64,000 nt of DNA from an uncultured Gammaproteobacteria bacterium (GCA_964596525.1 CAZQUL010000001.1:396830-460829); one strand, 5' to 3'; positions 29,279-53,570 are shown, counted from the stretch's first letter. Notes: generated from the letters alone by a model not told the origin. Made by a program: numbers and translations.

Positions 29279-30532
29279 CTAGGGCAAAAGCTCTTTGAGA
29301 ATGTCGTACGGCCGGCTCTGTAGAAAGCGGCGAGCAGTATCTTGCACGACCGGGAAAGGAGATGACTTCGCTTCGCGCAACCGCTCGAGCGTTTCCTCTT
29401 CGTCACCATGATTCTCGACAAGATGGCAGAGCAGTTTCGCGCAGGGTTCGGCTATCCACTCCTTCGAGGAAGGTTCCGCGAGGAGAAGTTTGAGGAGTGT
29501 GTTGAGCAGACTCGGATCTTTATGGAACTCACGGATTTCCAGGACTTCTTGGAGTAAGCCGGGCCCGGCGAGTGCGGTGGTGACCAGGCTCCATACCCGG
29601 GCTTCATCCACCTTAAGAGAGAGCGCGATCCACGCTTCGGAAGCGAGAGGGTGCTCCTGGTGAATAAGGCGGGCGAGCGCTGTCGATGGCCACTTTTTGA
29701 AGTCGGGAAAACGCTTCGTCAGCTCGTCCATCACTTCGTCTGCGCAGATCTCTTCCTGGATCTCTTGGGCTGTGGTGAAGAAATCCAAGTTCGTGAAGAC
29801 GAATAGCGCGGCGCGGCGCTTTTCAGGGTCGAGGAGCCTGAGGATCTGGTGTTTTTTGGCAAGGCCGACTTGATTGCTCGGAAAGACAAATTTTTCGAGC
29901 ACTTCGGTGGCGAATTGTTCGCGGGGGCGGATGCGATGCATGAGGATCGCGTCCGCTACGAGATCGGCTGACACGGAGTGGAAGAGCAGGTACGACAGCG
30001 GATCGATGACGTTCGGCGCGTGGCGGTCGAACATGACGACAAGCAACGTGGCCCACTCTCTTTGATTATCGGACGATAGATACCTCAAGGTCCCGAGGAA
30101 GAGGTGGCTGAGCGTCTTTACGATGTACTGCCATGCTTCTTCGCGTGACAAAAGCTTGAGGGCGGCGATGTAAGCGTGGCCGTTGTAAGCGCCCTGGAGT
30201 TCGTTCAAGTTTCGGCAGGTTGTCTGGAAAGCGCACAGCTCATGAGCGACCTTTGTGCAGAGCTCGGGGGTAAATCCGGCTTGGTCGCTGAGGATGAAGT
30301 TGAGCAGGCCTGGCTTTGCGAATACGGCGCAGGGCTTGGTGCCGAACTGGGTGACGTGCGGCCGCAGTTCGCGATCGTAGGTGCGCAGAATATATTCCAT
30401 TGCCAACGAGCGCGTCTCAGGCAAGAGGTTGGTGTTGCGCACCACACCCTCCGCGATGTTTGACGGTATTTTTTGTTGATCGATCAGCTGGTTCCACAAA
30501 CTGCGTTCCGTTGCTGCACGGTTTTCGCTCAT
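29279..30532 (-). CDS. hypothetical helical-repeat protein
   Basis: Likely start MSENRAATERS. No motif. Confidence 0.4.
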   Translation of the reverse strand: MSENRAATERSLWNQLIDQQKIPSNIAEGVVRNTNLLPETRSLAMEYILRTYDRELRPHVTQFGTKPCAVFAKPGLLNFILSDQAGFTPELCTKVAHELCAFQTTCRNLNELQGAYNGHAYIAALKLLSREEAWQYIVKTLSHLFLGTLRYLSSDNQREWATLLVVMFDRHAPNVIDPLSYLLFHSVSADLVADAILMHRIRPREQFATEVLEKFVFPSNQVGLAKKHQILRLLDPEKRRAALFVFTNLDFFTTAQEIQEEICADEVMDELTKRFPDFKKWPSTALARLIHQEHPLASEAWIALSLKVDEARVWSLVTTALAGPGLLQEVLEIREFHKDPSLLNTLLKLLLAEPSSKEWIAEPCAKLLCHLVENHGDEEETLERLREAKSSPFPVVQDTARRFLQSRPYDILKELLP

Positions 30533-30684
30533 GGCAAGGGCTCCTTTTTGGTGGGTCAAAGATCGTTCAAGGCAACCGAATTGCAGACTGTACCAAAAGG
30601 TAGCTTGGTTTGTCAATCAAGCCAGAAGCATAGTTTTCAACCATCGCTTTGACGAATCTTTCGTCCCCGGACTACGATACAACT

Positions 30685-33975: not shown

Positions 33976-33983
33976 TTTGTTTG

Positions 33984-34055
33984 AGCGGGTGACGGGAGTC
34001 GAACCCGTGTCACCAGTTTGGAAAACTGGGATAATAGCCGTTATATGACACCCGC
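33984..34055 (-). tRNA. tRNA-Gly (anticodon UCC)
   Basis: Hand-folded cloverleaf: acceptor GCGGGTG/CACCCGC, anticodon stem CCAGT/ACTGG, loop UUUCCAA, T-arm ACGGG-TTCGACT-CCCGT, discriminator U. No encoded CCA. Confidence 0.7.
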
Positions 34056-42123: not shown

Positions 42124-42311
42124 TCTTGATTGTCCTGTGTAAACGCGGTGATTGCATTTCTGCAGCATGTCCGTAGTTTCCCAGCGAAACACTATTTTTG
42201 TCAAGGAACATTCTTAAAGATAAGTTCCCTGCTATTTCCTGTAGCTGTGCGTTGCTCAGAGGGTTGAGATGCCTTATAGTACCGGTACTTTTGTTGCCAG
42301 ATCTTACCGAT

Positions 42312-43466
42312 ATGAACCTTTTTGAATACGAAGGAAAAAATCTTTTTGAAAAGTATGGTATCCGCGTTCCGCGCCGCGTGCTCGTTCGCTCTCTTAACGA
42401 GATTGAACTCGCGTATCGTTCCATTGGTGTTTCGGATGTTGTGGTTAAGGCGCAGATCCTTGCTGGCAAGCGCGGCAAAAGCGGTGGAGTGAAATTTTGC
42501 TCGACGCTACAAGAGGTGTGCGAAGCGGTTAGGATGCTCCTTGGTTCGGCAGTGCTCGGCTATAAGGTAAAGGCCGTGCTTATCGAAGAAAAACTCGCGA
42601 TTGCCGAAGAGCACTATCTCTCAATCAGTTACGATACTGCTGTGCGCGCTCCGCTTTTTGTATACAGTTCAGTCGGTGGCATGGAGATTGAAGACGCGCC
42701 AGAGACAGCACTTGTCCGCCGCCTTTGTGATGTGCGCAGCATTCACGCGCCTGGTAGCCAGCCTTTTGCAGCAGAAGCGTGGAAGTGCTTTTTGGCCGAG
42801 GATGCGCGCGTTGTCGAAATTAATCCGCTCGTTAAAACTACAAATGGTGAGTGGTATGCCGCAGATGCCAAAGTCGCGCTCGATGATGATGCTTTTTTCC
42901 GCCACCCGGAATGGAAAGACGTTGAGCCCCGCACCAGCCTGCCACGCCCTCCTACGGAACGCGAAAAGTCTGCTGCCACAATAGATGAAGGCGAGGCATA
43001 CTACCGCGGCACGGCGAGCAAATATATCGAGCTCGACGGCGATATTGCCATTCTTTTTTCCGGCGGTGGGGCTTCGATTGCGAACATGGACGCGCTTATA
43101 AAAGCGGGTGGAAAGCCAGCTAACTATACGGAATATTCCGGTAATCCGCCGCGTGAGAAAGTGGCTGCGCTTGCCCATGTTGTGCTGTCAAAGCCAGGCC
43201 TCAAAGGTCTTTGGATCGCGGGTGGCGTGGCGAATTTTACAGATGTCGCCGAGACGTTCCATGGTATCGTCGACACGCTCGACAACGTAAAGCCATCGTA
43301 CCCCATCGTCGTACGCCGCGCCGGACCGAACGAAGCGGAAGGGATGCGGATTATGAATGAATGCGCCGTGCGTAACGGATTGAGCATGAAGTTGTTTGGT
43401 AAAGAAACATCGATGAGCGCAACGGCTGAAGTGCTGATGGAGATGGTAAAAGAACAGCGTGCATAA
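42312..43466 (+). CDS. sucC: succinyl-CoA synthetase beta subunit-like (ATP-grasp) protein; candidate citryl-CoA synthetase large subunit
   Basis: Start MNLFEYEGKNLFEKYGIRVP. KAQILAGKRGKSGGVK. Full SucC architecture. Confidence 0.8.
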   Translation: MNLFEYEGKNLFEKYGIRVPRRVLVRSLNEIELAYRSIGVSDVVVKAQILAGKRGKSGGVKFCSTLQEVCEAVRMLLGSAVLGYKVKAVLIEEKLAIAEEHYLSISYDTAVRAPLFVYSSVGGMEIEDAPETALVRRLCDVRSIHAPGSQPFAAEAWKCFLAEDARVVEINPLVKTTNGEWYAADAKVALDDDAFFRHPEWKDVEPRTSLPRPPTEREKSAATIDEGEAYYRGTASKYIELDGDIAILFSGGGASIANMDALIKAGGKPANYTEYSGNPPREKVAALAHVVLSKPGLKGLWIAGGVANFTDVAETFHGIVDTLDNVKPSYPIVVRRAGPNEAEGMRIMNECAVRNGLSMKLFGKETSMSATAEVLMEMVKEQRA

Positions 43467-44283
43467 TTTTTTGCGTACTTCTAATCTTAAAATTCACATA
43501 GCTATGTTGCCCGCCCTTACTCTCGCCACTTCTTTAACTGGCACTCCGCTTCTTTGGAGTGCAGCCGATCGTCTCCGCCACCTCCACATCATCGGTAAAA
43601 GCGGTTCAGGCAAATCGACGCTCCTCGCCCACCTCGTGCGGCAAGATATCGAGTGCGGTACGGGTGTGCTTGTACTCGATCCGCACGGCGATCTTCTCGA
43701 TATGATCGAGAAAGAATTATCTCCCGATCATGCCGGAAAAGTGAGTCTTATCCGCATCATCGATGCGAATACGGCCGAAGCGCAGTGCCAGGCGATTGAT
43801 CTTGCTTCGATTCTGAATGGCGGAAAAACAACTCTTGTTAGTCTTGGCAAAGGACGTATCGGCGAAGAGCTTAGCACTCGCCTAGGGCGAGAACTTCTTG
43901 CTCGGTTTGTGGCCGCAATGCTCGCCCGGCGCGGAAAAGAAGAGGTTTCTCCCTGCGCGCTTTACCTCGACGAAGCACCCACCTGGTGGCACCAGGATCT
44001 TGAACCACTCCTCACTCAAGCGCGGAGCTCTGGCGTGAGTGTCACGCTCGCACATCAGTACCTTGAGCAGTTTGACGAGCCGACTACTGATCTTATTCTT
44101 GGTAATGTCGGTTTGATGGCTCTGTTTAGGATTGGCATGTATGATGCAGAACGTCTCGAACCCGAGGTAGCGCCTGCGTTCAACAGAGAAACACTCACGA
44201 CTCTGCCCGAACGCCATCTCATCATCAAGAACGCTTCGACGCGCGAAGTGCACGAAGGTGTTCTTGTGGCCTCCAAATTATAA
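43459..44283 (+). CDS. compact HerA/FtsK/TrwB-like P-loop ATPase
   Basis: HLHIIGKSGSGKSTLL (Walker A) followed by VLVLDPHGD. LYLDEAP (Walker B). QARSSGVSVTLAHQ matches the family motif. Confidence 0.5.
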   Translation: MHNFLRTSNLKIHIAMLPALTLATSLTGTPLLWSAADRLRHLHIIGKSGSGKSTLLAHLVRQDIECGTGVLVLDPHGDLLDMIEKELSPDHAGKVSLIRIIDANTAEAQCQAIDLASILNGGKTTLVSLGKGRIGEELSTRLGRELLARFVAAMLARRGKEEVSPCALYLDEAPTWWHQDLEPLLTQARSSGVSVTLAHQYLEQFDEPTTDLILGNVGLMALFRIGMYDAERLEPEVAPAFNRETLTTLPERHLIIKNASTREVHEGVLVASKL

Positions 44284-44292
44284 CTTATCTCT

Positions 44293-44745
44293 ATGTCCTC
44301 GTACTCCAAAAACCGCCACACCAATATTCCGGCAGCGTACGTCGTTTTCATGCATAATGATGACGTGCTTTTGCTGCGCCGTTACAACACCGGGTACCAA
44401 GATGGCAAGTATTCGCTTGTTGCCGGACATGTCGAAGCCGAAGAAAGTTTTAGCGCTGCAGCAGTGCGCGAAGCGCTCGAAGAGGCCGGAGTAGGCGTGG
44501 CCCCCGAAGATCTCGAATTTGCGCATATGACGCATCGTCGCGCCGAGGACAGCGAGCGCGTGGATGTGTTTTTCGTTGTCAGGAAATGGCACGGTGAGCT
44601 TACTAACCGCGAACCGGAAAAGTGCGATGACTTGTCGTGGTTCAATATCCGCAGCCTGCCGGACAATCTCATTCCCTATGTCCGCCAAGCTCTCGAAGCG
44701 ATCCGTGACAAAAAAGCATATAGTGAGTGGGGGTGGAAGAAGTAA
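44293..44745 (+). CDS. NUDIX hydrolase
   Basis: Nudix box GHVEAEESFSAAAVREALEEAGV. Confidence 0.8.
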   Translation: MSSYSKNRHTNIPAAYVVFMHNDDVLLLRRYNTGYQDGKYSLVAGHVEAEESFSAAAVREALEEAGVGVAPEDLEFAHMTHRRAEDSERVDVFFVVRKWHGELTNREPEKCDDLSWFNIRSLPDNLIPYVRQALEAIRDKKAYSEWGWKK

Positions 44746-44760
44746 TTTTTTTGGAGGAAT

Positions 44761-45654
44761 ATGGGCATCTTACTCTCGAAAAACATGACGGTTCTCGTGC
44801 AGGGCATGACCGGTAAAGAAGGCCAGAAAAATACGCGGGCAATGCTTGACTACCATACGAACGTTGTCGCTGGTGTTACGCCCGGTAAGGGTGGGCAAGA
44901 GGTGGAGAGCAAGCCGGTGTATAATTCCGTTCAGCAGGCGGTCGATAACCATGGATTATTTTCTGCCTCTGTCATTGTAGTACCCCCCTTTGCCGCCAAA
45001 GCGGCGATACTCGAAGCTATTAATGCCGGTATCCCGTTCATCAATATTTTGGTTGAACGTATTCCGCTTCAAGATGCAGCTTACTGCCTCGCCGCTGCGC
45101 GCGAACAACGTATCCGTCTCCTTGGCCCCAGTTCGCTCGGCGTGCTCGTTCCGGGCGTTGGGCGTCTCGGCGTTGTCGGAGGTCCGCTCGTCAACGAAAT
45201 TTTTACGCCCGGATCGGTTGGCATTATTTCGCGCTCTGGCGGTATGACAAACGAGTTGTCATGGCAGATGCGACGTGCGGGTTTTGGCCAGAGCGCGGCG
45301 GTGCATGTCGGGGGCGATCTTCTTATGGGTACAACATATGCCGAACTCCTTGAGCTCTTTGAAGCTGATCCGGCTACCAAGGTCGTTGCCATCTTCGGCG
45401 AGCATGGCGGGAGTTATGAATTTGAAATCGTCGAGCTTGTTAAGCCAAAAAAATTCACCAAACCACTCGCGGTATATATCGGCGGTAAATTCGCGAGTAT
45501 GTTTCCCGAAGGGATGACTGTTGGCCACGCGGGTGCGATCGTTGGGCGCGGGCAGGGCGCGAACGAGAAAGAACAAGCACTTAAAGAAGTAGGGGTGATG
45601 ATCGCAGAAAGGTATGAGGAGTTAGTGGAATTGGTGCGGCCTTACGCACAGTAA
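44761..45654 (+). CDS. sucD: succinyl-CoA synthetase alpha subunit-like (CoA-binding) protein; candidate citryl-CoA synthetase small subunit
   Basis: VLVQGMTGKEGQ. Phospho-His loop MTVGHAGAIV. Confidence 0.8.
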   Translation: MGILLSKNMTVLVQGMTGKEGQKNTRAMLDYHTNVVAGVTPGKGGQEVESKPVYNSVQQAVDNHGLFSASVIVVPPFAAKAAILEAINAGIPFINILVERIPLQDAAYCLAAAREQRIRLLGPSSLGVLVPGVGRLGVVGGPLVNEIFTPGSVGIISRSGGMTNELSWQMRRAGFGQSAAVHVGGDLLMGTTYAELLELFEADPATKVVAIFGEHGGSYEFEIVELVKPKKFTKPLAVYIGGKFASMFPEGMTVGHAGAIVGRGQGANEKEQALKEVGVMIAERYEELVELVRPYAQ

Positions 45655-45665
45655 TATCTAAATAT

Positions 45666-46106
45666 ATGAAAGCAGGTGTTGACCATGTTGGTGTAGCAGT
45701 AGCATTTTTTTGCCATGATGGTGCCGGTAATTTTTTGATGCACAAACGCAGTGAACGGTGCCGTGATGAACAAGGAACATGGGATATAGGCGGAGGAAAG
45801 CTCGAGTACGGAGAAACGATTGACGAGGCTGTCATGCGTGAACTTGCAGAAGAGTATGGTTGTGTGGGTAGTATCGAAGAACGCTTACCGCCGAATACCT
45901 ATCTACGTGTCGATGGCAACGAACGACGTCATTGGGTAATCATTCCGCACATCGTGCGCGTCAAGCGAGAAGATGCTAAACTGAACGATCCAGAGAGTAT
46001 GACCGAAATGGCCTGGTTTAAACTCGACTTTTTGCCCGAACCGCTCCATTCCGGAGTAAAGTCCGATATCGAGCGCTATGCGGCCTCTTTGCAAAAGTAT
46101 TGCTAA
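45666..46106 (+). CDS. NUDIX hydrolase (second copy)
   Basis: Nudix box GGGKLEYGETIDEAVMRELAEEYG. Confidence 0.8.
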   Translation: MKAGVDHVGVAVAFFCHDGAGNFLMHKRSERCRDEQGTWDIGGGKLEYGETIDEAVMRELAEEYGCVGSIEERLPPNTYLRVDGNERRHWVIIPHIVRVKREDAKLNDPESMTEMAWFKLDFLPEPLHSGVKSDIERYAASLQKYC

Positions 46107-46858
46107 GCGTTCCTCGTATGCACTTCACTACCGCTCTCTCCACTATCAAAGACGGCCGCGAAATCATCCGCGGCCTGCCGCTCGAAGAGCTTGTTAAAAC
46201 CAGAACGTTTCTCGAGAACGCGGTTTTTCTCATCCGCGGCACGTTTCCGGCTGCTGCCGAACTCAAACTCCTCAACATGGTTTTTTCGGCGGCTATTGAT
46301 CATGGCGTGGGTGCGCCCTCAACGACTGTAGCTCGCATCGCTGCTTCCACCAATTCAACCACTTCTAACCTGCACGCCATACTCGCGGCCGGTATTCTTA
46401 CTATGGGTGATCAGCATGGCGGAGCGATAGAAACCGCTGCCCGCATTTTTCTCGAACTCGCCGACCAGACCGACGACGCGCTTCGGTCGTGGCTTTCCGA
46501 CATGAAATTTATCAAGATGAAAGTTCCAGGGTTTGGCCATCGGGTTCTCGCTACTGATCACCGCGCCGAGTTGCTTCTTGCCCAAGCGGATGAGCTTGGT
46601 CTGTCTGGTAAAGCCTGTCGCGTAGCAGAGCGCATCCATAAACTCCTCAACGAATCATCGTCAAAACCGCTCCCCCTCAACATTGATGGCGCTATGGCGG
46701 CGGTGCTGGCAGATCTTGGGTTTGCACCCGAGTGTATGAAGGGCCTATTTATTTTTGCGCGCCTCCCCGGGCTTATCGCGCACTGTGTGGAGCAGGTCGG
46801 CAGCGGCGAAGGTGTAAAACGTCTTTCTTTGGACGAAGAGATATATACTGGACCGTAG
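46100..46858 (+). CDS. short citrate-synthase-family protein (citryl-CoA lyase-like, about 250 aa)
   Basis: Citrate synthase signatures: MGDQHGGAIE (HGG loop), GFGHRVL..DHRAE (G[FY]GHRV...DPR), NIDGAMAAVL, ARLPGLIAHCVEQ. Lacks the N-terminal approximately 120 aa of full citrate synthases. Confidence 0.65.
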   Translation: MLSVPRMHFTTALSTIKDGREIIRGLPLEELVKTRTFLENAVFLIRGTFPAAAELKLLNMVFSAAIDHGVGAPSTTVARIAASTNSTTSNLHAILAAGILTMGDQHGGAIETAARIFLELADQTDDALRSWLSDMKFIKMKVPGFGHRVLATDHRAELLLAQADELGLSGKACRVAERIHKLLNESSSKPLPLNIDGAMAAVLADLGFAPECMKGLFIFARLPGLIAHCVEQVGSGEGVKRLSLDEEIYTGP

Positions 46859-48607: not shown

Positions 48608-49333
48608 ATGATCACATCCATTTTGGCTCCGGCAACAATCAGCCCAGAAACTACCATGCCGGTGGTTCTTTTTGAGGACAATCATACTCTTGCGGTCTAC
48701 AAACCGTACGGCTGGCTTACCCAAGGCGATCAAACCGGCGATATTAGTTTGCTCGATTGGGTTAAAGACTATCTTAAAACCACGTATCATAAGCCGGGCA
48801 ATGTTTTTGTCGGCCTTGTCCATCGGCTCGATCGGCCAGTGGCTGGTATCGTAGTCTTTGCCAAAACAAGCAAAGGCGCAAGCCGCTTATCCGAGCAGTT
48901 TCGCGCCCACACCGTTACCAAGCGCTACCAAGCTCTTGTTGAAGGGAGTGTCGCTGCCGAGCGTGCCACGCTCATACATTTTCTCAGTAAAAACGAACGC
49001 ACTAATACGGTTACGGCGTACAATGCTCCTACTTTAGGAGCGCTCCGTTGTGAATTGCAATATCGCGTTTTGGAGCGCTCCGCATCTGCCACGCTCGTTG
49101 AAATAGAGCTGAAAACTGGTCGTAGTCATCAGATCCGCGCCCAATTTGCGGCTATCGGGCACCCCCTTTGCGGTGATGTAAAGTATGGTGCCACACAACC
49201 TTTTATGCCACGTGCCCTAGCCTTAGTAGCCGAGCATCTTGTATTCAGCAAGGTGGCAGGGGAGGGAGGGGTGGTCATTACGCTGCCACGTTTTTTTAAA
49301 ATGCGAGGTAAAACCATCACCGTCACTCATTGA
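48608..49333 (+). CDS. RluA-family pseudouridine synthase
   Basis: Start MITSIL. GLVHRLDRPVAGIVVFAKT catalytic Asp motif. Confidence 0.75.
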   Translation: MITSILAPATISPETTMPVVLFEDNHTLAVYKPYGWLTQGDQTGDISLLDWVKDYLKTTYHKPGNVFVGLVHRLDRPVAGIVVFAKTSKGASRLSEQFRAHTVTKRYQALVEGSVAAERATLIHFLSKNERTNTVTAYNAPTLGALRCELQYRVLERSASATLVEIELKTGRSHQIRAQFAAIGHPLCGDVKYGATQPFMPRALALVAEHLVFSKVAGEGGVVITLPRFFKMRGKTITVTH

Positions 49334-49419
49334 CAGATTTTTTATTTCCCCTATGCTTAAAATATTTATTTTAGAGCCGCGGGTTTTTGGCCCGAGTCGG
49401 GGAATGATGCCCAGTTTGT

Positions 49420-49839
49420 ATGAAATCCTTACTTTTCCACTGCAGAAATTACCGTACGCGCGTCGGGGAACTCGCTGATCGTCCAGCAACGATCTGTCCT
49501 GAACCGGTAGGTGAGCGCGAACGGTTCTGCCACGACTGCGTCGTTGCTCTCATTACGGTCGAGCGGGGCGATGTTGTTGACGAAGTTGCTGAAAAAATGG
49601 CCCGCGAGATAGAAAAAATGGCCCGTGACGTGGGGCGAACAAAAATCGTTTTGCTGCCCTTTGCCCACCTATCGAGTTCGCTCGCCGATTCTACCACCGG
49701 TATCGCCGCCATCAAACGCATTGCCGAACATGTATCTAGTGCCGCGCTTGATGTAGAACGTGGGCATTTCGGATCGCACAAAGAACTCCTTATCGATCTC
49801 TACGGGCACCCCGGCAATACGCGCTTCCGTGAATTCTAA
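49420..49839 (+). CDS. free-standing archaeal-type threonyl-tRNA synthetase editing-domain homologue (tRNA-Thr_ED / DTD-like fold)
   Basis: MKSLLFHCRNYRTRV..., CVVALITVERGDVV, KIVLLPFAHLSSSLAD and GHFGSHKELLIDLYGHPG align with the archaeal ThrRS editing-domain pattern (M.LLLIHSDY.EY...vLvafvsVEkgDe...rivlYPyAHLSs.La...FGwyK...GHP). Alignment made from memory. Confidence 0.5.
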   Translation: MKSLLFHCRNYRTRVGELADRPATICPEPVGERERFCHDCVVALITVERGDVVDEVAEKMAREIEKMARDVGRTKIVLLPFAHLSSSLADSTTGIAAIKRIAEHVSSAALDVERGHFGSHKELLIDLYGHPGNTRFREF

Positions 49840-49869
49840 AACAAACCCTGCCTGCAAGGTTTGTTTTTA
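49839..49869 (+). terminator. intrinsic terminator (AAACAAACC...GGTTTGTTTTT)
   Basis: 9-bp stem and T-run immediately after the stop codon. Confidence 0.55.
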
Positions 49870-50036
49870 GATGATTCACGCATCCCTCCTTGAACACGCG
49901 AATATCATGATTTGTTATAAAAAAATAACATAATTTAACCAAAATTTCAAGCTCGTCAACAGAATGATCGTTTTTTGTTCGTAAAAAATAACAAATTTTG
50001 ACAGATAATTTTGCAGAATGTTATAGTTCATTTCCT

Positions 50037-50840
50037 ATGAAAGCAGCGCTTAAAAACCGTAAATTGGCTGAACGACTTGAAGAAATCGGCCTTTCTCCCA
50101 AAGCCACTACTATTTACGCGGCTCTTTTAGAGCTTGGGACTGCTGTCCCATCGCGGGTAGCAGAGTACACCAAAATCAATCGTACCACCGTGTATACTAT
50201 TTTGGCGGAACTGGCAGGCTACGGCCTGATTAGTGAATTCGAACATAACAAAAAGTTGTGCTATCAGGTGGAACAACCAGTGCAACTCCTTACGTTTGCC
50301 GAAAGCCAGGTAGCGCTGGCACAGAAACGACTTGGTAGCGCTCAGCGCATCTTTCCGGAGATTGAGGGTATTTTATCGCGCTTGCCCAACCGCCCGAAGA
50401 TTCGTTACTTCGAAGGGGTTGAGGGCGTGATGGAAGTGTATCGCGATCACGTGCAGCAGCGGCGTGCGTACGAAATGGCAGCTTTCGGCAATGCGGCCGA
50501 GGTGCAGAATTTTTTTTCCAAGCGGTTTTTACGCAGCTATGTAGAGCGTAAAATGCGTCTTAAGATAACGACCCGTGCCATTTTGCCCGACAGCGAGCGC
50601 GACATTAATTACAACCAGACTATTTATCAGCACGTTCCGGCGGAGTTCTGGCCGGTCGTACGGCATGTGCCCAAAGAGATCTTCACGTTCAAGAGCGAAA
50701 TTACGATGTATGGGAACGATCGCGTCTCTGTTATCAATTTCCAGGAGCAGAGCATGGTGGGCATTATCATCGAAGATGCTACAATCCATGGCATGATGCG
50801 GATGATTTTCGAATTAGCGTGGAGGGCCTTACGAACTTAA
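50037..50840 (+). CDS. TrmB-family transcriptional regulator
   Basis: N-terminal winged HTH (IYAALLELGTAVPSRVAEYTKINRTTVYTILAELAGYGLI), C-terminal TrmB-type domain. Confidence 0.65.
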   Translation: MKAALKNRKLAERLEEIGLSPKATTIYAALLELGTAVPSRVAEYTKINRTTVYTILAELAGYGLISEFEHNKKLCYQVEQPVQLLTFAESQVALAQKRLGSAQRIFPEIEGILSRLPNRPKIRYFEGVEGVMEVYRDHVQQRRAYEMAAFGNAAEVQNFFSKRFLRSYVERKMRLKITTRAILPDSERDINYNQTIYQHVPAEFWPVVRHVPKEIFTFKSEITMYGNDRVSVINFQEQSMVGIIIEDATIHGMMRMIFELAWRALRT

Positions 50841-53412: not shown

Positions 53413-53497
53413 ATGTAGTATGTGTGGATCCGCTCGTACAGACGACAGACTTCGGATCCCCCGAAGTCTGGTCGTTTAAGTACGTGAGCTGACCGTG

Positions 53498-53570
<73 letters not shown>

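What the first reader, a model, noticed from the sequence alone, without database searches (positions are those of the whole stretch)
49420..49839. Stand-alone archaeal-type ThrRS editing-domain homologue in a bacterial genome
The 139-aa ORF aligns motif by motif with the N-terminal editing domain of archaeal threonyl-tRNA synthetases (M.LL..H..Y ... vvalvsVErgD ... KIVLyPfAHLSSsLA ... GhFG..K...GHPg). This domain has a D-aminoacyl-tRNA-deacylase-like fold. In some crenarchaea it occurs as a free-standing trans-editing protein. In bacteria it would be unusual and suggests horizontal acquisition of a Ser-tRNA(Thr) proofreading factor. It has its own intrinsic terminator and is followed by a TrmB-type regulator.
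Basis: partly seen in the sequence, partly recalled or inferred. Interest (0 to 1): 0.6.

Follow-up and report, generated by a model that had tools for sequence, protein, structure and literature searches.

The report
Stand-alone archaeal-type ThrRS editing domain
A small gene in a candidate-phyla-radiation (CPR) bacterium encodes a free-standing copy of the proofreading domain that archaea normally carry on their threonyl-tRNA synthetase; the match is real, but this protein family was already catalogued in such bacteria in 2017, although its function has never been tested.

Summary
The 139-aa ORF at 49420-49839 (+) is real and is a full-length member of Pfam PF08915 (tRNA-Thr_ED, E=6.6e-24). 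Its model (pLDDT 89.9) superposes on the Pyrococcus abyssi ThrRS N-terminal editing domain at TM 0.90 and 1.6 A. Pro80, Phe81, Ala82, His83 and Lys121 are identical to that domain. Only Tyr120 (now His) and Glu134 (now Thr) differ, and both were shown to be dispensable.

The host is a Patescibacteria (CPR) bacterium near Magasanikbacteria. The protein belongs to a small, tightly conserved subfamily ending in GHPGNxR[FY]REF, found sporadically in CPR bacteria and DPANN archaea, which interleave in a rough tree.

The family is not new. Mukai et al. 2017 defined stand-alone 'tRNA-Thr-ED' proteins, including a Magasanikbacteria member of this subfamily, and NCBI already names them.

The gene is not a recent import here: its GC matches the genome, and a 61%-identical orthologue keeps the same gene order. 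In the one relative where the editing-domain gene and ThrRS share a contig, ThrRS has an intact bacterial editing domain. The protein is therefore more likely an accessory or back-up deacylase than the only Ser-tRNA(Thr) editor. The host's own ThrRS could not be retrieved. Substrate is inferred, not shown.

The parts
49420..49839 (+). Gene for a 139-aa single-domain tRNA-Thr_ED protein (archaeal ThrRS N-terminal editing domain homologue, DTD-like fold). End coordinate includes the stop codon.
   Evidence: ORF. PF08915 E=6.6e-24, full length. PDB sequence hits to the Pab, Mj and Ap editing domains. AlphaFold2 model pLDDT 89.9. Foldseek TM 0.90 and rmsd 1.6 A to 1y2q/2hl1. Family alignment A1 has invariant P80 F81 A82 H83 L84 S85, H116 F117 G118 S119 K121, and H130 G132 N133 R135 R137 E138.
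49330..49357 (+). Sigma-70-like promoter candidate (TTGACA, 16 nt, TATGCT; 10 of 12 matches), about 60 nt upstream of the start codon.
   Evidence: This is a consensus match only; function is inferred.
49835..49871 (+). Terminator-like hairpin that begins inside the stop codon and ends in a U-run.
   Evidence: Folded at -13 kcal/mol, z=-3.85, with 0 of 200 shuffles as stable. Not called by the consensus scanner because of its loop and GC rules.
50038..50840 (+). Neighbouring TrmB-family HTH gene. It is context only, with no evidence of a functional link.
   Evidence: PF01978 E=2e-10. The same neighbour is present in the closest relative's contigs L001 and L052 but in none of the other ED loci. 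A strong promoter-like site at 49998-50027 suggests the start is the ATG near 50038.

Best explanation
The gene encodes an active, trans-acting aminoacyl-tRNA deacylase of the archaeal ThrRS-NTD type (DTD-like fold), expressed from its own small transcription unit. By analogy with the solved NTDs, it would act as a homodimer that binds the aminoacylated CCA end. Main-chain atoms around residues 119-121 would fix the beta-hydroxyl of L-serine. Lys121 would position the hydrolytic water, and the 2'-OH of tRNA A76 would assist catalysis. The most likely substrate is L-Ser mischarged onto tRNA, with Ser-tRNA(Thr) as first candidate. It lacks an anticodon-binding domain, so tRNA choice could rest only on the acceptor end. 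The gene is rare and patchy among CPR and DPANN genomes, and a related ED-carrying Saccharibacteria contig also encodes a ThrRS with an intact bacterial N2 editing site. It is therefore best read as an accessory or back-up editor, not the cell's only Ser-tRNA(Thr) proofreader. One possible value is that it has no counterpart of the oxidation- and Zn-sensitive catalytic cysteine of the N2 site. Shown: homology, fold, conservation of the active-site residues, stand-alone architecture, distribution and synteny. Inferred: enzymatic activity, amino-acid and tRNA specificity, dimerisation and the back-up role.
For: The PF08915 match is full length, E=6.6e-24. The model reaches pLDDT 89.9 and pTM 0.85. 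Foldseek gives TM 0.90 and rmsd 1.6-1.8 A to PabNTD, with the Mj and Ap NTDs next and ATD/DTD only about 0.7. Ahmad et al. 2015 list seven residues within 6 A of the scissile bond in PabNTD: Pro80, Phe81, Ala82, His83, Tyr120, Lys121 and Glu134' (PMC4491819). Five are identical here and invariant across the family: P80, F81, A82, H83 and K121. The two that differ (H120 and T134) are the ones whose alanine mutants kept activity and Ser/Thr discrimination, whereas K121M, and H83A in Pab, lost activity. Strong purifying selection is indicated by 19 invariant columns across 30 sequences that share 39-61% identity with the window protein. The gene has been kept through lineage divergence: the 61%-identical orthologue has the same gene order. 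For the accessory role: about 32 subfamily hits among 185,579 species representatives and 27 clusters at E<=1e-30. L003 carries both the ED gene and a 594-aa ThrRS with tRNA_SAD and the RHSxAH / DLCRGPHV motifs. The 119 further Saccharimonadales ThrRS listed all carry PF07973. The N2-type ThrRS editing site is inactivated by H2O2 through Cys182 and by Zn, while the DTD-fold homologue ATD is reported to be oxidation-resistant (PMC12003907).
Against: No activity has been measured for any stand-alone member. The subfamily replaces the aromatic residue 119 (Tyr or Trp in NTDs) with an invariant Ser. It also replaces the C-terminal segment that supplies Glu134 with an invariant GN-x-R-[FY]-R-E-[FY] that ends the protein. 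The pocket and the cross-subunit contact may therefore differ. Mukai et al. noted the loss of this Glu and suggested other aminoacyl- or hydroxyacyl-tRNA substrates. The isolated archaeal ED is reported to depend on discriminator U73 (PMC8762117). The discriminator of the host's tRNA-Thr is unknown, and both host tRNA-Gly genes have U73. The host's own ThrRS was not retrievable, so the back-up reading rests on a single relative. The subfamily also has a nearly invariant Cys8, so the oxidation-resistance argument is untested. No gene-neighbourhood evidence links the gene to thrS or tRNA-Thr.
Confidence: 0.5

Rival explanations
1. Sole editor. The host ThrRS lacks a functional editing domain, and this protein supplies Ser-tRNA(Thr) proofreading in trans. 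This would be the crenarchaeal ThrRS-cat / ThrRS-ed arrangement, and it is the first reader's implied model.
For: The precedent in Sulfolobus and Aeropyrum is summarised. The active site is intact. The host ThrRS is unknown, so this is not excluded for this genome.
Against: On L003, the only contig that carries both genes, ThrRS has tRNA_SAD and intact HxxxH / CxGxH editing motifs. All 120 Saccharimonadales ThrRS listed have the same domain. The ED gene is far too rare among CPR genomes to be a general solution. The protein lacks the anticodon-binding domain that the crenarchaeal trans-editor keeps.
Confidence: 0.15
2. Different substrate. The CPR/DPANN subfamily is a deacylase whose specificity differs from Ser-tRNA(Thr). 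Candidates are Ser on another tRNA (tRNA-Cys or tRNA-Ala), Gly- or D-aminoacyl-tRNA, or hydroxyacyl- or otherwise modified acyl-tRNA.
For: The subfamily has its own invariant residues: S119, H120, N133, R135, R137, E138, nearly invariant C8 and the R21-P22 / E28 loop. It has lost Glu134. Mukai et al. proposed other aminoacyl- or hydroxyacyl-tRNA substrates for this reason. Related stand-alone EDs are linked to tRNA-Cys and sulfur genes, not to ThrRS. Three subfamily loci have a tRNA-Cys within 0.2-5 kb of the ED gene. A redundant Ser-tRNA(Thr) editor alongside an intact cis editor (L003) seems unnecessary. The DTD-like fold has repeatedly changed specificity (DTD, ATD, NTD).
Against: In NTDs, Ser/Thr discrimination is carried by main-chain atoms, and both Glu134 and Tyr120 are dispensable. 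Side-chain changes therefore need not alter specificity. The window has no tRNA-Cys, SepRS or SepCysS near the gene. The DTD-defining features are absent: there is no PF02580 hit, and identity to DTD is only 8-14% at TM about 0.7.
Confidence: 0.3
3. Non-catalytic relic or RNA-binding or regulatory protein. The domain has lost its deacylase activity.
For: Nothing positive beyond the absence of experimental data and of any conserved neighbourhood.
Against: The residues needed for activity in NTDs (H83, K121, the PFAH loop) are invariant across proteins that share 39-61% identity with the window protein, from two domains of life. The fold is predicted with high confidence.
Confidence: 0.05

Closest known systems
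Stand-alone 'tRNA-Thr-ED' proteins of Mukai et al. 2017 (mBio, PMC5424206, Text S1, Fig. S4, Data Set S1). Closest listed member: KKR49220.1 from Candidatus Magasanikbacteria GW2011_GWC2_40_17.
   Same: Both are single-domain proteins of about 138 aa with no anticodon-binding domain. The aminoacyl-adenosine-binding residues are conserved and the Glu (Mj Glu135 / Pab Glu134) is replaced. KKR49220.1 shares the subfamily signature (...HFGYHKSLLLEIKGHPGSFRYREFY) and the same CPR lineage as the window's host.
   Different: The members Mukai et al. discussed functionally are the SepCysS- and tRNA-Cys-associated archaeal ones. The window gene has no such neighbours. No member has been characterised biochemically.
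[quoted passage not shown]
   Same: Same fold (TM 0.87-0.90, rmsd 1.6-2.1 A, 24-30% identity). The PFAH loop and Lys121 are identical, and the residue numbering is almost in register.
   Different: The window protein is not fused to a synthetase. Tyr/Trp119 becomes Ser, Tyr120 becomes His, and the C-terminal segment that carries Glu134 is replaced by GN-x-R-[FY]-R-E-[FY]. The host is bacterial.
Crenarchaeal trans-editing ThrRS-ed (Ser-tRNA(Thr) hydrolase, NCBIfam PRK14938; Korencic et al. 2004).
   Same: Both have the same editing domain acting in trans. The query matches the N-terminal roughly 125 residues of the profile (E=2.3e-15).
   Different: ThrRS-ed is about 390 aa and keeps an anticodon-binding domain. 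It pairs with a ThrRS-cat that has no editing domain. The window protein scores 56.5 bits against a cut-off of 362 and has no such domain.
D-aminoacyl-tRNA deacylase (DTD) and the animal ATD.
   Same: Both share the DTD-like fold and are free-standing trans-editing factors.
   Different: TM is only 0.66-0.72 at 8-16% identity. There is no Pfam DTD hit. The Gly-cisPro signature is absent by inspection of the sequence.

Membership tests
Pfam PF08915 tRNA-Thr_ED (archaeal ThrRS N-terminal editing domain, DTD-like fold) | Significant full-length match to the family profile, above the curated cut-off | tested here: met
   85 bits against a cut-off of 30.2, E=6.6e-24, profile positions 1-135 of 137.
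Pfam PF08915 tRNA-Thr_ED (archaeal ThrRS N-terminal editing domain, DTD-like fold) | NTD three-dimensional fold | tested here: met
   AlphaFold2 model with pLDDT 89.9. Foldseek TM 0.90 and rmsd 1.6 A to 1y2q; the top 23 PDB hits are all ThrRS NTDs. This is a predicted structure, not a solved one.
Pfam PF08915 tRNA-Thr_ED (archaeal ThrRS N-terminal editing domain, DTD-like fold) | Active-site residues needed for activity: the Pro80-Phe81-Ala82-His83 loop and Lys121 (Ahmad 2015) | tested here: met
   These align identically to PabNTD and are invariant in 30 family members. Their roles are taken from PMC4491819.
Pfam PF08915 tRNA-Thr_ED (archaeal ThrRS N-terminal editing domain, DTD-like fold) | Tyr120 and cross-subunit Glu134 lining the pocket | tested here: not met
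   The window protein has His120 and Thr134 (Ala in most members), flanked by invariant Asn133 and Arg135. Both residues are experimentally dispensable in NTDs.
Pfam PF08915 tRNA-Thr_ED (archaeal ThrRS N-terminal editing domain, DTD-like fold) | Hydrolysis of Ser-tRNA(Thr) but not Thr-tRNA(Thr) | not testable with these tools
   This needs a deacylation assay.
Full-length archaeal ThrRS | Editing domain fused to the class II catalytic and anticodon-binding domains | tested here: not met
   The ORF is 139 aa and ends at a stop codon. 49 of 50 related GTDB loci are likewise stand-alone. There is no ThrRS in the window.
Crenarchaeal ThrRS-ed (Ser-tRNA(Thr) hydrolase, PRK14938) | Editing domain plus C-terminal anticodon-binding domain | tested here: not met
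   56.5 bits against a cut-off of 362; only profile positions 34-125 of 387 are matched.
Crenarchaeal ThrRS-ed (Ser-tRNA(Thr) hydrolase, PRK14938) | Partner ThrRS-cat that lacks any editing domain | tested here: inconclusive
   The host ThrRS could not be retrieved. In the relative L003, ThrRS has an intact N2 editing domain.
Stand-alone tRNA-Thr-ED (Mukai et al. 2017) | Single domain without an anticodon-binding domain; adenosine- and aminoacyl-binding residues conserved; Glu135(Mj) not conserved | tested here: met
   The signature is shared with KKR49220.1. The window protein and KKR49220.1 do not pair in the NJ tree, where KKR49220.1 branches at the base of the subfamily.
Stand-alone tRNA-Thr-ED (Mukai et al. 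2017), SepCysS-associated clade | Genomic linkage to tRNA-Cys, SepCysS or sulfur-metabolism genes | tested here: not met
   The window's neighbours are RluA, an RlmI-like methyltransferase, TrmB and FolC, and it has no tRNA-Cys. The linkage is seen only in the distant subgroup L037-L049 and L122-L132.
D-aminoacyl-tRNA deacylase (DTD) | Match to the DTD family and the cross-subunit Gly-cisPro motif | tested here: not met
   There is no DTD Pfam hit. Foldseek to DTDs gives TM 0.66-0.72 at 8-14% identity. No NxGPVT-type motif is present in the sequence.

The most novel reading that the evidence does not exclude
The GHPGNxR[FY]REF subfamily, shared and exchanged between CPR bacteria and DPANN archaea, is a distinct trans-editing enzyme whose substrate is not Ser-tRNA(Thr). 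It could be another mischarged or non-canonical acyl-tRNA, selected through the remodelled residue-119/120 wall and the Arg-rich C-terminus. That would add a further free-standing deacylase family to those recognised in bacteria.
Probability: 0.3. Interest if true: 0.6.

Novelty: new member of a known kind. Interest (0 to 1): 0.3.

Why it matters
Translation quality control in ultra-small symbionts (CPR and DPANN) is poorly understood. A bare NTD-type deacylase coexisting with a ThrRS that already edits would be an example of redundant proofreading by two unrelated folds. It may also mark gene exchange between episymbiotic bacteria and archaea. The 2024 review of editing enzymes read here shows the NTD fold in trans only as ThrRS-ed, with its anticodon-binding domain, and the passages read do not mention a single-domain form. 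Biochemical characterisation of one member would fill that gap. As a genome-annotation finding it is ordinary, because the family is already recognised and named.

Tried and rejected
1. Host ThrRS. There is no ThrRS in the window. The genome is not among the GTDB representatives scanned. A search seeded with the Saccharibacteria ThrRS listed only the 120 closest of 8000 candidates, none from the 1,343,778-bp contig. The metagenome scan added no further ED and ThrRS pair; its single candidate (L070) is a ProRS.
2. A remembered ThrRS motif regex found nothing. It was replaced by an E. coli ThrRS 242-642 probe validated against the PDB.
3. Conserved gene neighbourhood for the subfamily: none.
4. 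ED genes next to tRNA genes: 6 of 60 loci against 3.0 +/- 1.5 expected, p about 0.055, so not significant.
5. tRNA-Thr discriminator base: no tRNA-Thr gene in the window or in any of the 132 loci.
6. Recent horizontal transfer: rejected on GC content and on synteny with a 61%-identical orthologue.
7. A literature search for 'tRNA-Thr_ED' found nothing. Searches combining CPR with editing domains found nothing relevant.
8. The PLP-enzyme neighbour of the distant subgroup was tested as SepCysS. It scores instead as a NifS/IscS-type cysteine desulfurase, below the equivalog cut-off.

Full report
OBSERVATION. Pfam PF08915 (tRNA-Thr_ED) matches at E=6.6e-24 and 85 bits (cut-off 30.2) over residues 1-137, covering profile positions 1-135 of 137. 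NCBIfam matches only the N-terminal parts of archaeal ThrRS (PRK03991, E=3.5e-22) and of the crenarchaeal Ser-tRNA(Thr) hydrolase (PRK14938, E=2.3e-15), both far below their whole-protein cut-offs, as expected for a bare domain. phmmer against the PDB finds the editing domains of P. abyssi, M. jannaschii and A. pernix ThrRS.

STRUCTURE. An AlphaFold2 model built on a 30-sequence family alignment has mean pLDDT 89.9 and pTM 0.85. Foldseek places it on PabNTD at TM 0.90 and rmsd 1.6-1.8 A. The Mj and Ap NTDs come next, and ATD and DTD only follow at TM about 0.7.

TRANSCRIPTION UNIT. A sigma-70-like site lies at 49330-49357. A hairpin of -13 kcal/mol (z=-3.85) starts in the stop codon and runs into a U-tract. 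The consensus terminator scanner did not call it. The downstream gene is a TrmB-family HTH protein; its start is probably the ATG near 50038.

HOST. The window encodes bacterial-type PheS/PheT, DnaE, RseP and IleRS. Its DnaE is 100% identical to a protein on an NCBI contig of 1,343,778 bp. The nearest named relatives (65-69% identity) are 'Patescibacteria group' and Candidatus Magasanikbacteria. Many large ORFs in the window have no Pfam or NCBIfam hit, which is typical of CPR genomes.

THE FAMILY. The word-indexed search returned 74 proteins of 119-161 aa, most of them 135-145 aa, all with PF08915 as their only domain, at 40-61% identity. The sources name them 'threonyl-tRNA synthetase editing domain-containing protein' in Nanoarchaeota, Pacearchaeota, Woesearchaeota and Paceibacterota. 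The alignment shows 19 invariant columns, including P80-F81-A82-H83-L84-S85, H116-F117-G118-S119, K121, and a C-terminal H130/G132-N133/R135/R137-E138 signature that ends the protein. An exhaustive profile search of 1.84 billion cluster representatives found 870 proteins at E<=1e-3, 417 at E<=1e-10 and only 27 at E<=1e-30, so this subfamily is small. A scan of 185,579 GTDB species representatives gave 50 loci. About 32 of them belong to this subfamily. Their record titles assign them to CPR bacteria (Saccharibacteria, Paceibacterota, Nomurabacteria, Falkowbacteria), to DPANN archaea (Pace-, Woese-, Nano- and Iainarchaeota), and to a few bins labelled with other phyla that may be mis-binned. 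In 49 of the 50 loci the match lies in a stand-alone ORF. An NJ tree without support values interleaves CPR and DPANN sequences. The window protein and its closest homologue fall in an all-bacterial clade with Saccharibacteria.

IS IT A RECENT IMPORT? No. The gene's GC content (53.6%) matches the window (51.7%). The closest homologue (P0002, 61% identity) sits in the same gene order: citrate-synthase-like gene, methyltransferase, RluA, ED, TrmB. The gene has therefore been inherited vertically through substantial divergence in this lineage. Outside this lineage the subfamily has no conserved neighbourhood.

WHAT IS ALREADY KNOWN. Mukai et al. 2017 (PMC5424206, Text S1) defined 'tRNA-Thr-ED' as stand-alone homologues of the archaeal ThrRS editing domain that lack the anticodon-binding domain. 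They reported 'a wide distribution ... among prokaryotes'. [quoted passage not shown] Their Data Set S1 lists bacterial members, including KKR49220.1 from Candidatus Magasanikbacteria, which ends '...HFGYHKSLLLEIKGHPGSFRYREFY'. That is the window's subfamily and the window's lineage. The 2022 follow-up (PMC8762117) adds that the isolated domain discriminates tRNAs through U73, and that bacteria have a U73 tRNA-Gly. A 2024 review of editing enzymes shows the NTD fold in trans only as ThrRS-ed, with its anticodon-binding domain. The family is thus catalogued and named, but it has not been characterised experimentally.

MECHANISM. Ahmad et al. 2015 (PMC4491819) list Pro80, Phe81, Ala82, His83, Tyr120, Lys121 and Glu134' as the residues within 6 A of the scissile bond in PabNTD. 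Y120A/E134A mutants keep both activity and Ser/Thr discrimination. K121M is severely compromised, and H83A is inactive in Pab. Specificity comes from main-chain atoms around residues 119-121, and catalysis is assisted by the 2'-OH of A76. In the window protein the five residues P80, F81, A82, H83 and K121 are identical, in the same numbering, and invariant across the family. The two dispensable residues differ: His120, and Thr134 (Ala in most members). On this basis the protein is very probably an active NTD-type deacylase. Its subfamily-specific features are an invariant Ser119 in place of Tyr/Trp, His120, nearly invariant Cys8, the R21-P22...E28 loop and the Arg-rich C-terminus. These leave room for a shifted specificity.

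DOES IT REPLACE A MISSING ThrRS EDITING DOMAIN? The host's thrS is not in the window and could not be reached. One relative is informative. Saccharibacteria contig L003 carries an ED gene 58% identical to the window's. About 6 kb away it carries a 594-aa ThrRS with tRNA_SAD, class II core and anticodon-binding domains. The N-terminus of that ThrRS aligns with the N2 editing domain of S. aureus and E. coli ThrRS, and the RHSxAH and D-x-CRGxHV motifs are intact. The other 119 Saccharimonadales ThrRS listed have the same architecture. Together with the rarity of the gene, this argues against an obligatory trans-editor and for an accessory or back-up role. A possible rationale comes from the literature. 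The N2-type site is switched off by H2O2 through Cys182 and by Zn, whereas the DTD-fold homologue ATD is reported to resist oxidative stress (PMC12003907). This rationale is an inference and has not been tested.

ALTERNATIVES. A different substrate remains a serious rival, at about 0.3. A distant stand-alone ED subgroup (Hadarchaeota, Aenigmatarchaeota, Altiarchaeota) has a U73 tRNA-Cys immediately upstream and NifS-like, IscU-like and ThiI genes nearby. This agrees with Mukai's SepCysS / tRNA-Cys association. Three loci of the window's subfamily have a tRNA-Cys within 0.2-5 kb of the ED gene, but the window does not. Membership of the DTD family is rejected.

VERDICT. The rarity in bacteria and the novelty are overstated, the crenarchaeal analogy is imperfect, and the Ser-tRNA(Thr) role is plausible but unproven. 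This is a new member of a known, named and uncharacterised family. Interest is 0.3.

Noticed in passing
window 42198-46858 (+); also L052 4549-8282: A split ATP-citrate-lyase / citryl-CoA-type gene set. The parts are ATP-grasp_2 + Citrate_bind (42198-43466), CoA_binding + Ligase_CoA (44761-45654) and a short Citrate_synt C-terminal protein (46100-46858). They are interspersed with two NUDIX genes and a DUF87/AAA gene. The three ACL-like genes recur in the related contig L052. This is unexpected for a CPR bacterium with limited metabolism.
   Followed up: partly
L037-L049 and L122-L132 (for example L040 9917-13241): A distant subgroup of stand-alone ED proteins (27-33% identity) in Hadarchaeota, Aenigmatarchaeota and Altiarchaeota. 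In most Hadarchaeota-type loci a tRNA-Cys(GCA, U73) gene lies immediately upstream of the ED gene. NifS/IscS-like cysteine desulfurase, IscU-like, ThiI and small HTH genes lie nearby. Some members (L037, L049) carry a Cys-rich C-terminal tail. This matches the tRNA-Cys and sulfur-gene association reported by Mukai et al. 2017. The PLP enzyme scores as NifS-like in NCBIfam, and no SepCysS family was among its listed matches.
   Followed up: partly
L003 16464-18248 (-): The Saccharibacteria ThrRS (594 aa) has the N2 editing domain but no N1/TGS domain. The 119 other Saccharimonadales ThrRS listed (604-654 aa) show the same Pfam architecture, without TGS.
   Followed up: partly
L070 17392-18552 (-): A 386-aa ProRS matches the bacterial ProRS profile in two stretches that skip the INS editing domain, so it is a minimal ProRS without cis-editing. 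It lies about 7 kb from an ED-subfamily gene and about 10 kb from a tRNA-Cys gene on the same metagenomic contig.
   Followed up: partly
window 12798-15500 (-), 29279-30616 (-), 60085-61383 (+): Three large ORFs (899-900, 444-445 and 432 aa) have no hit in Pfam or NCBIfam.
   Followed up: no
window 49998-50840 (+): The mechanical ORF for the TrmB-like gene starts at a TTG that coincides with the -35 hexamer of a strong promoter-like site (TTGACA-18-TATAGT with an upstream TG, 11 of 12 matches, 49998-50027). The real start is probably the ATG near 50038 (267 aa, as called on L001). That would leave a very short leader.
   Followed up: partly
L050 1355-2458 (+): This Micrarchaeota locus is the only one of the 50 GTDB loci where the ED match continues downstream, into a 368-aa open frame with 251 aa after the match. 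It may be a ThrRS-ed-like protein with an anticodon-binding domain. It was not scanned.
   Followed up: no
window 33983-34055 (-) and 53497-53570 (-): Both tRNA-Gly genes have discriminator U73, and neither encodes CCA. If the stand-alone ED relies on U73, as reported for the archaeal domain, Gly-tRNA(Gly) would be a potential off-target in this host.
   Followed up: no
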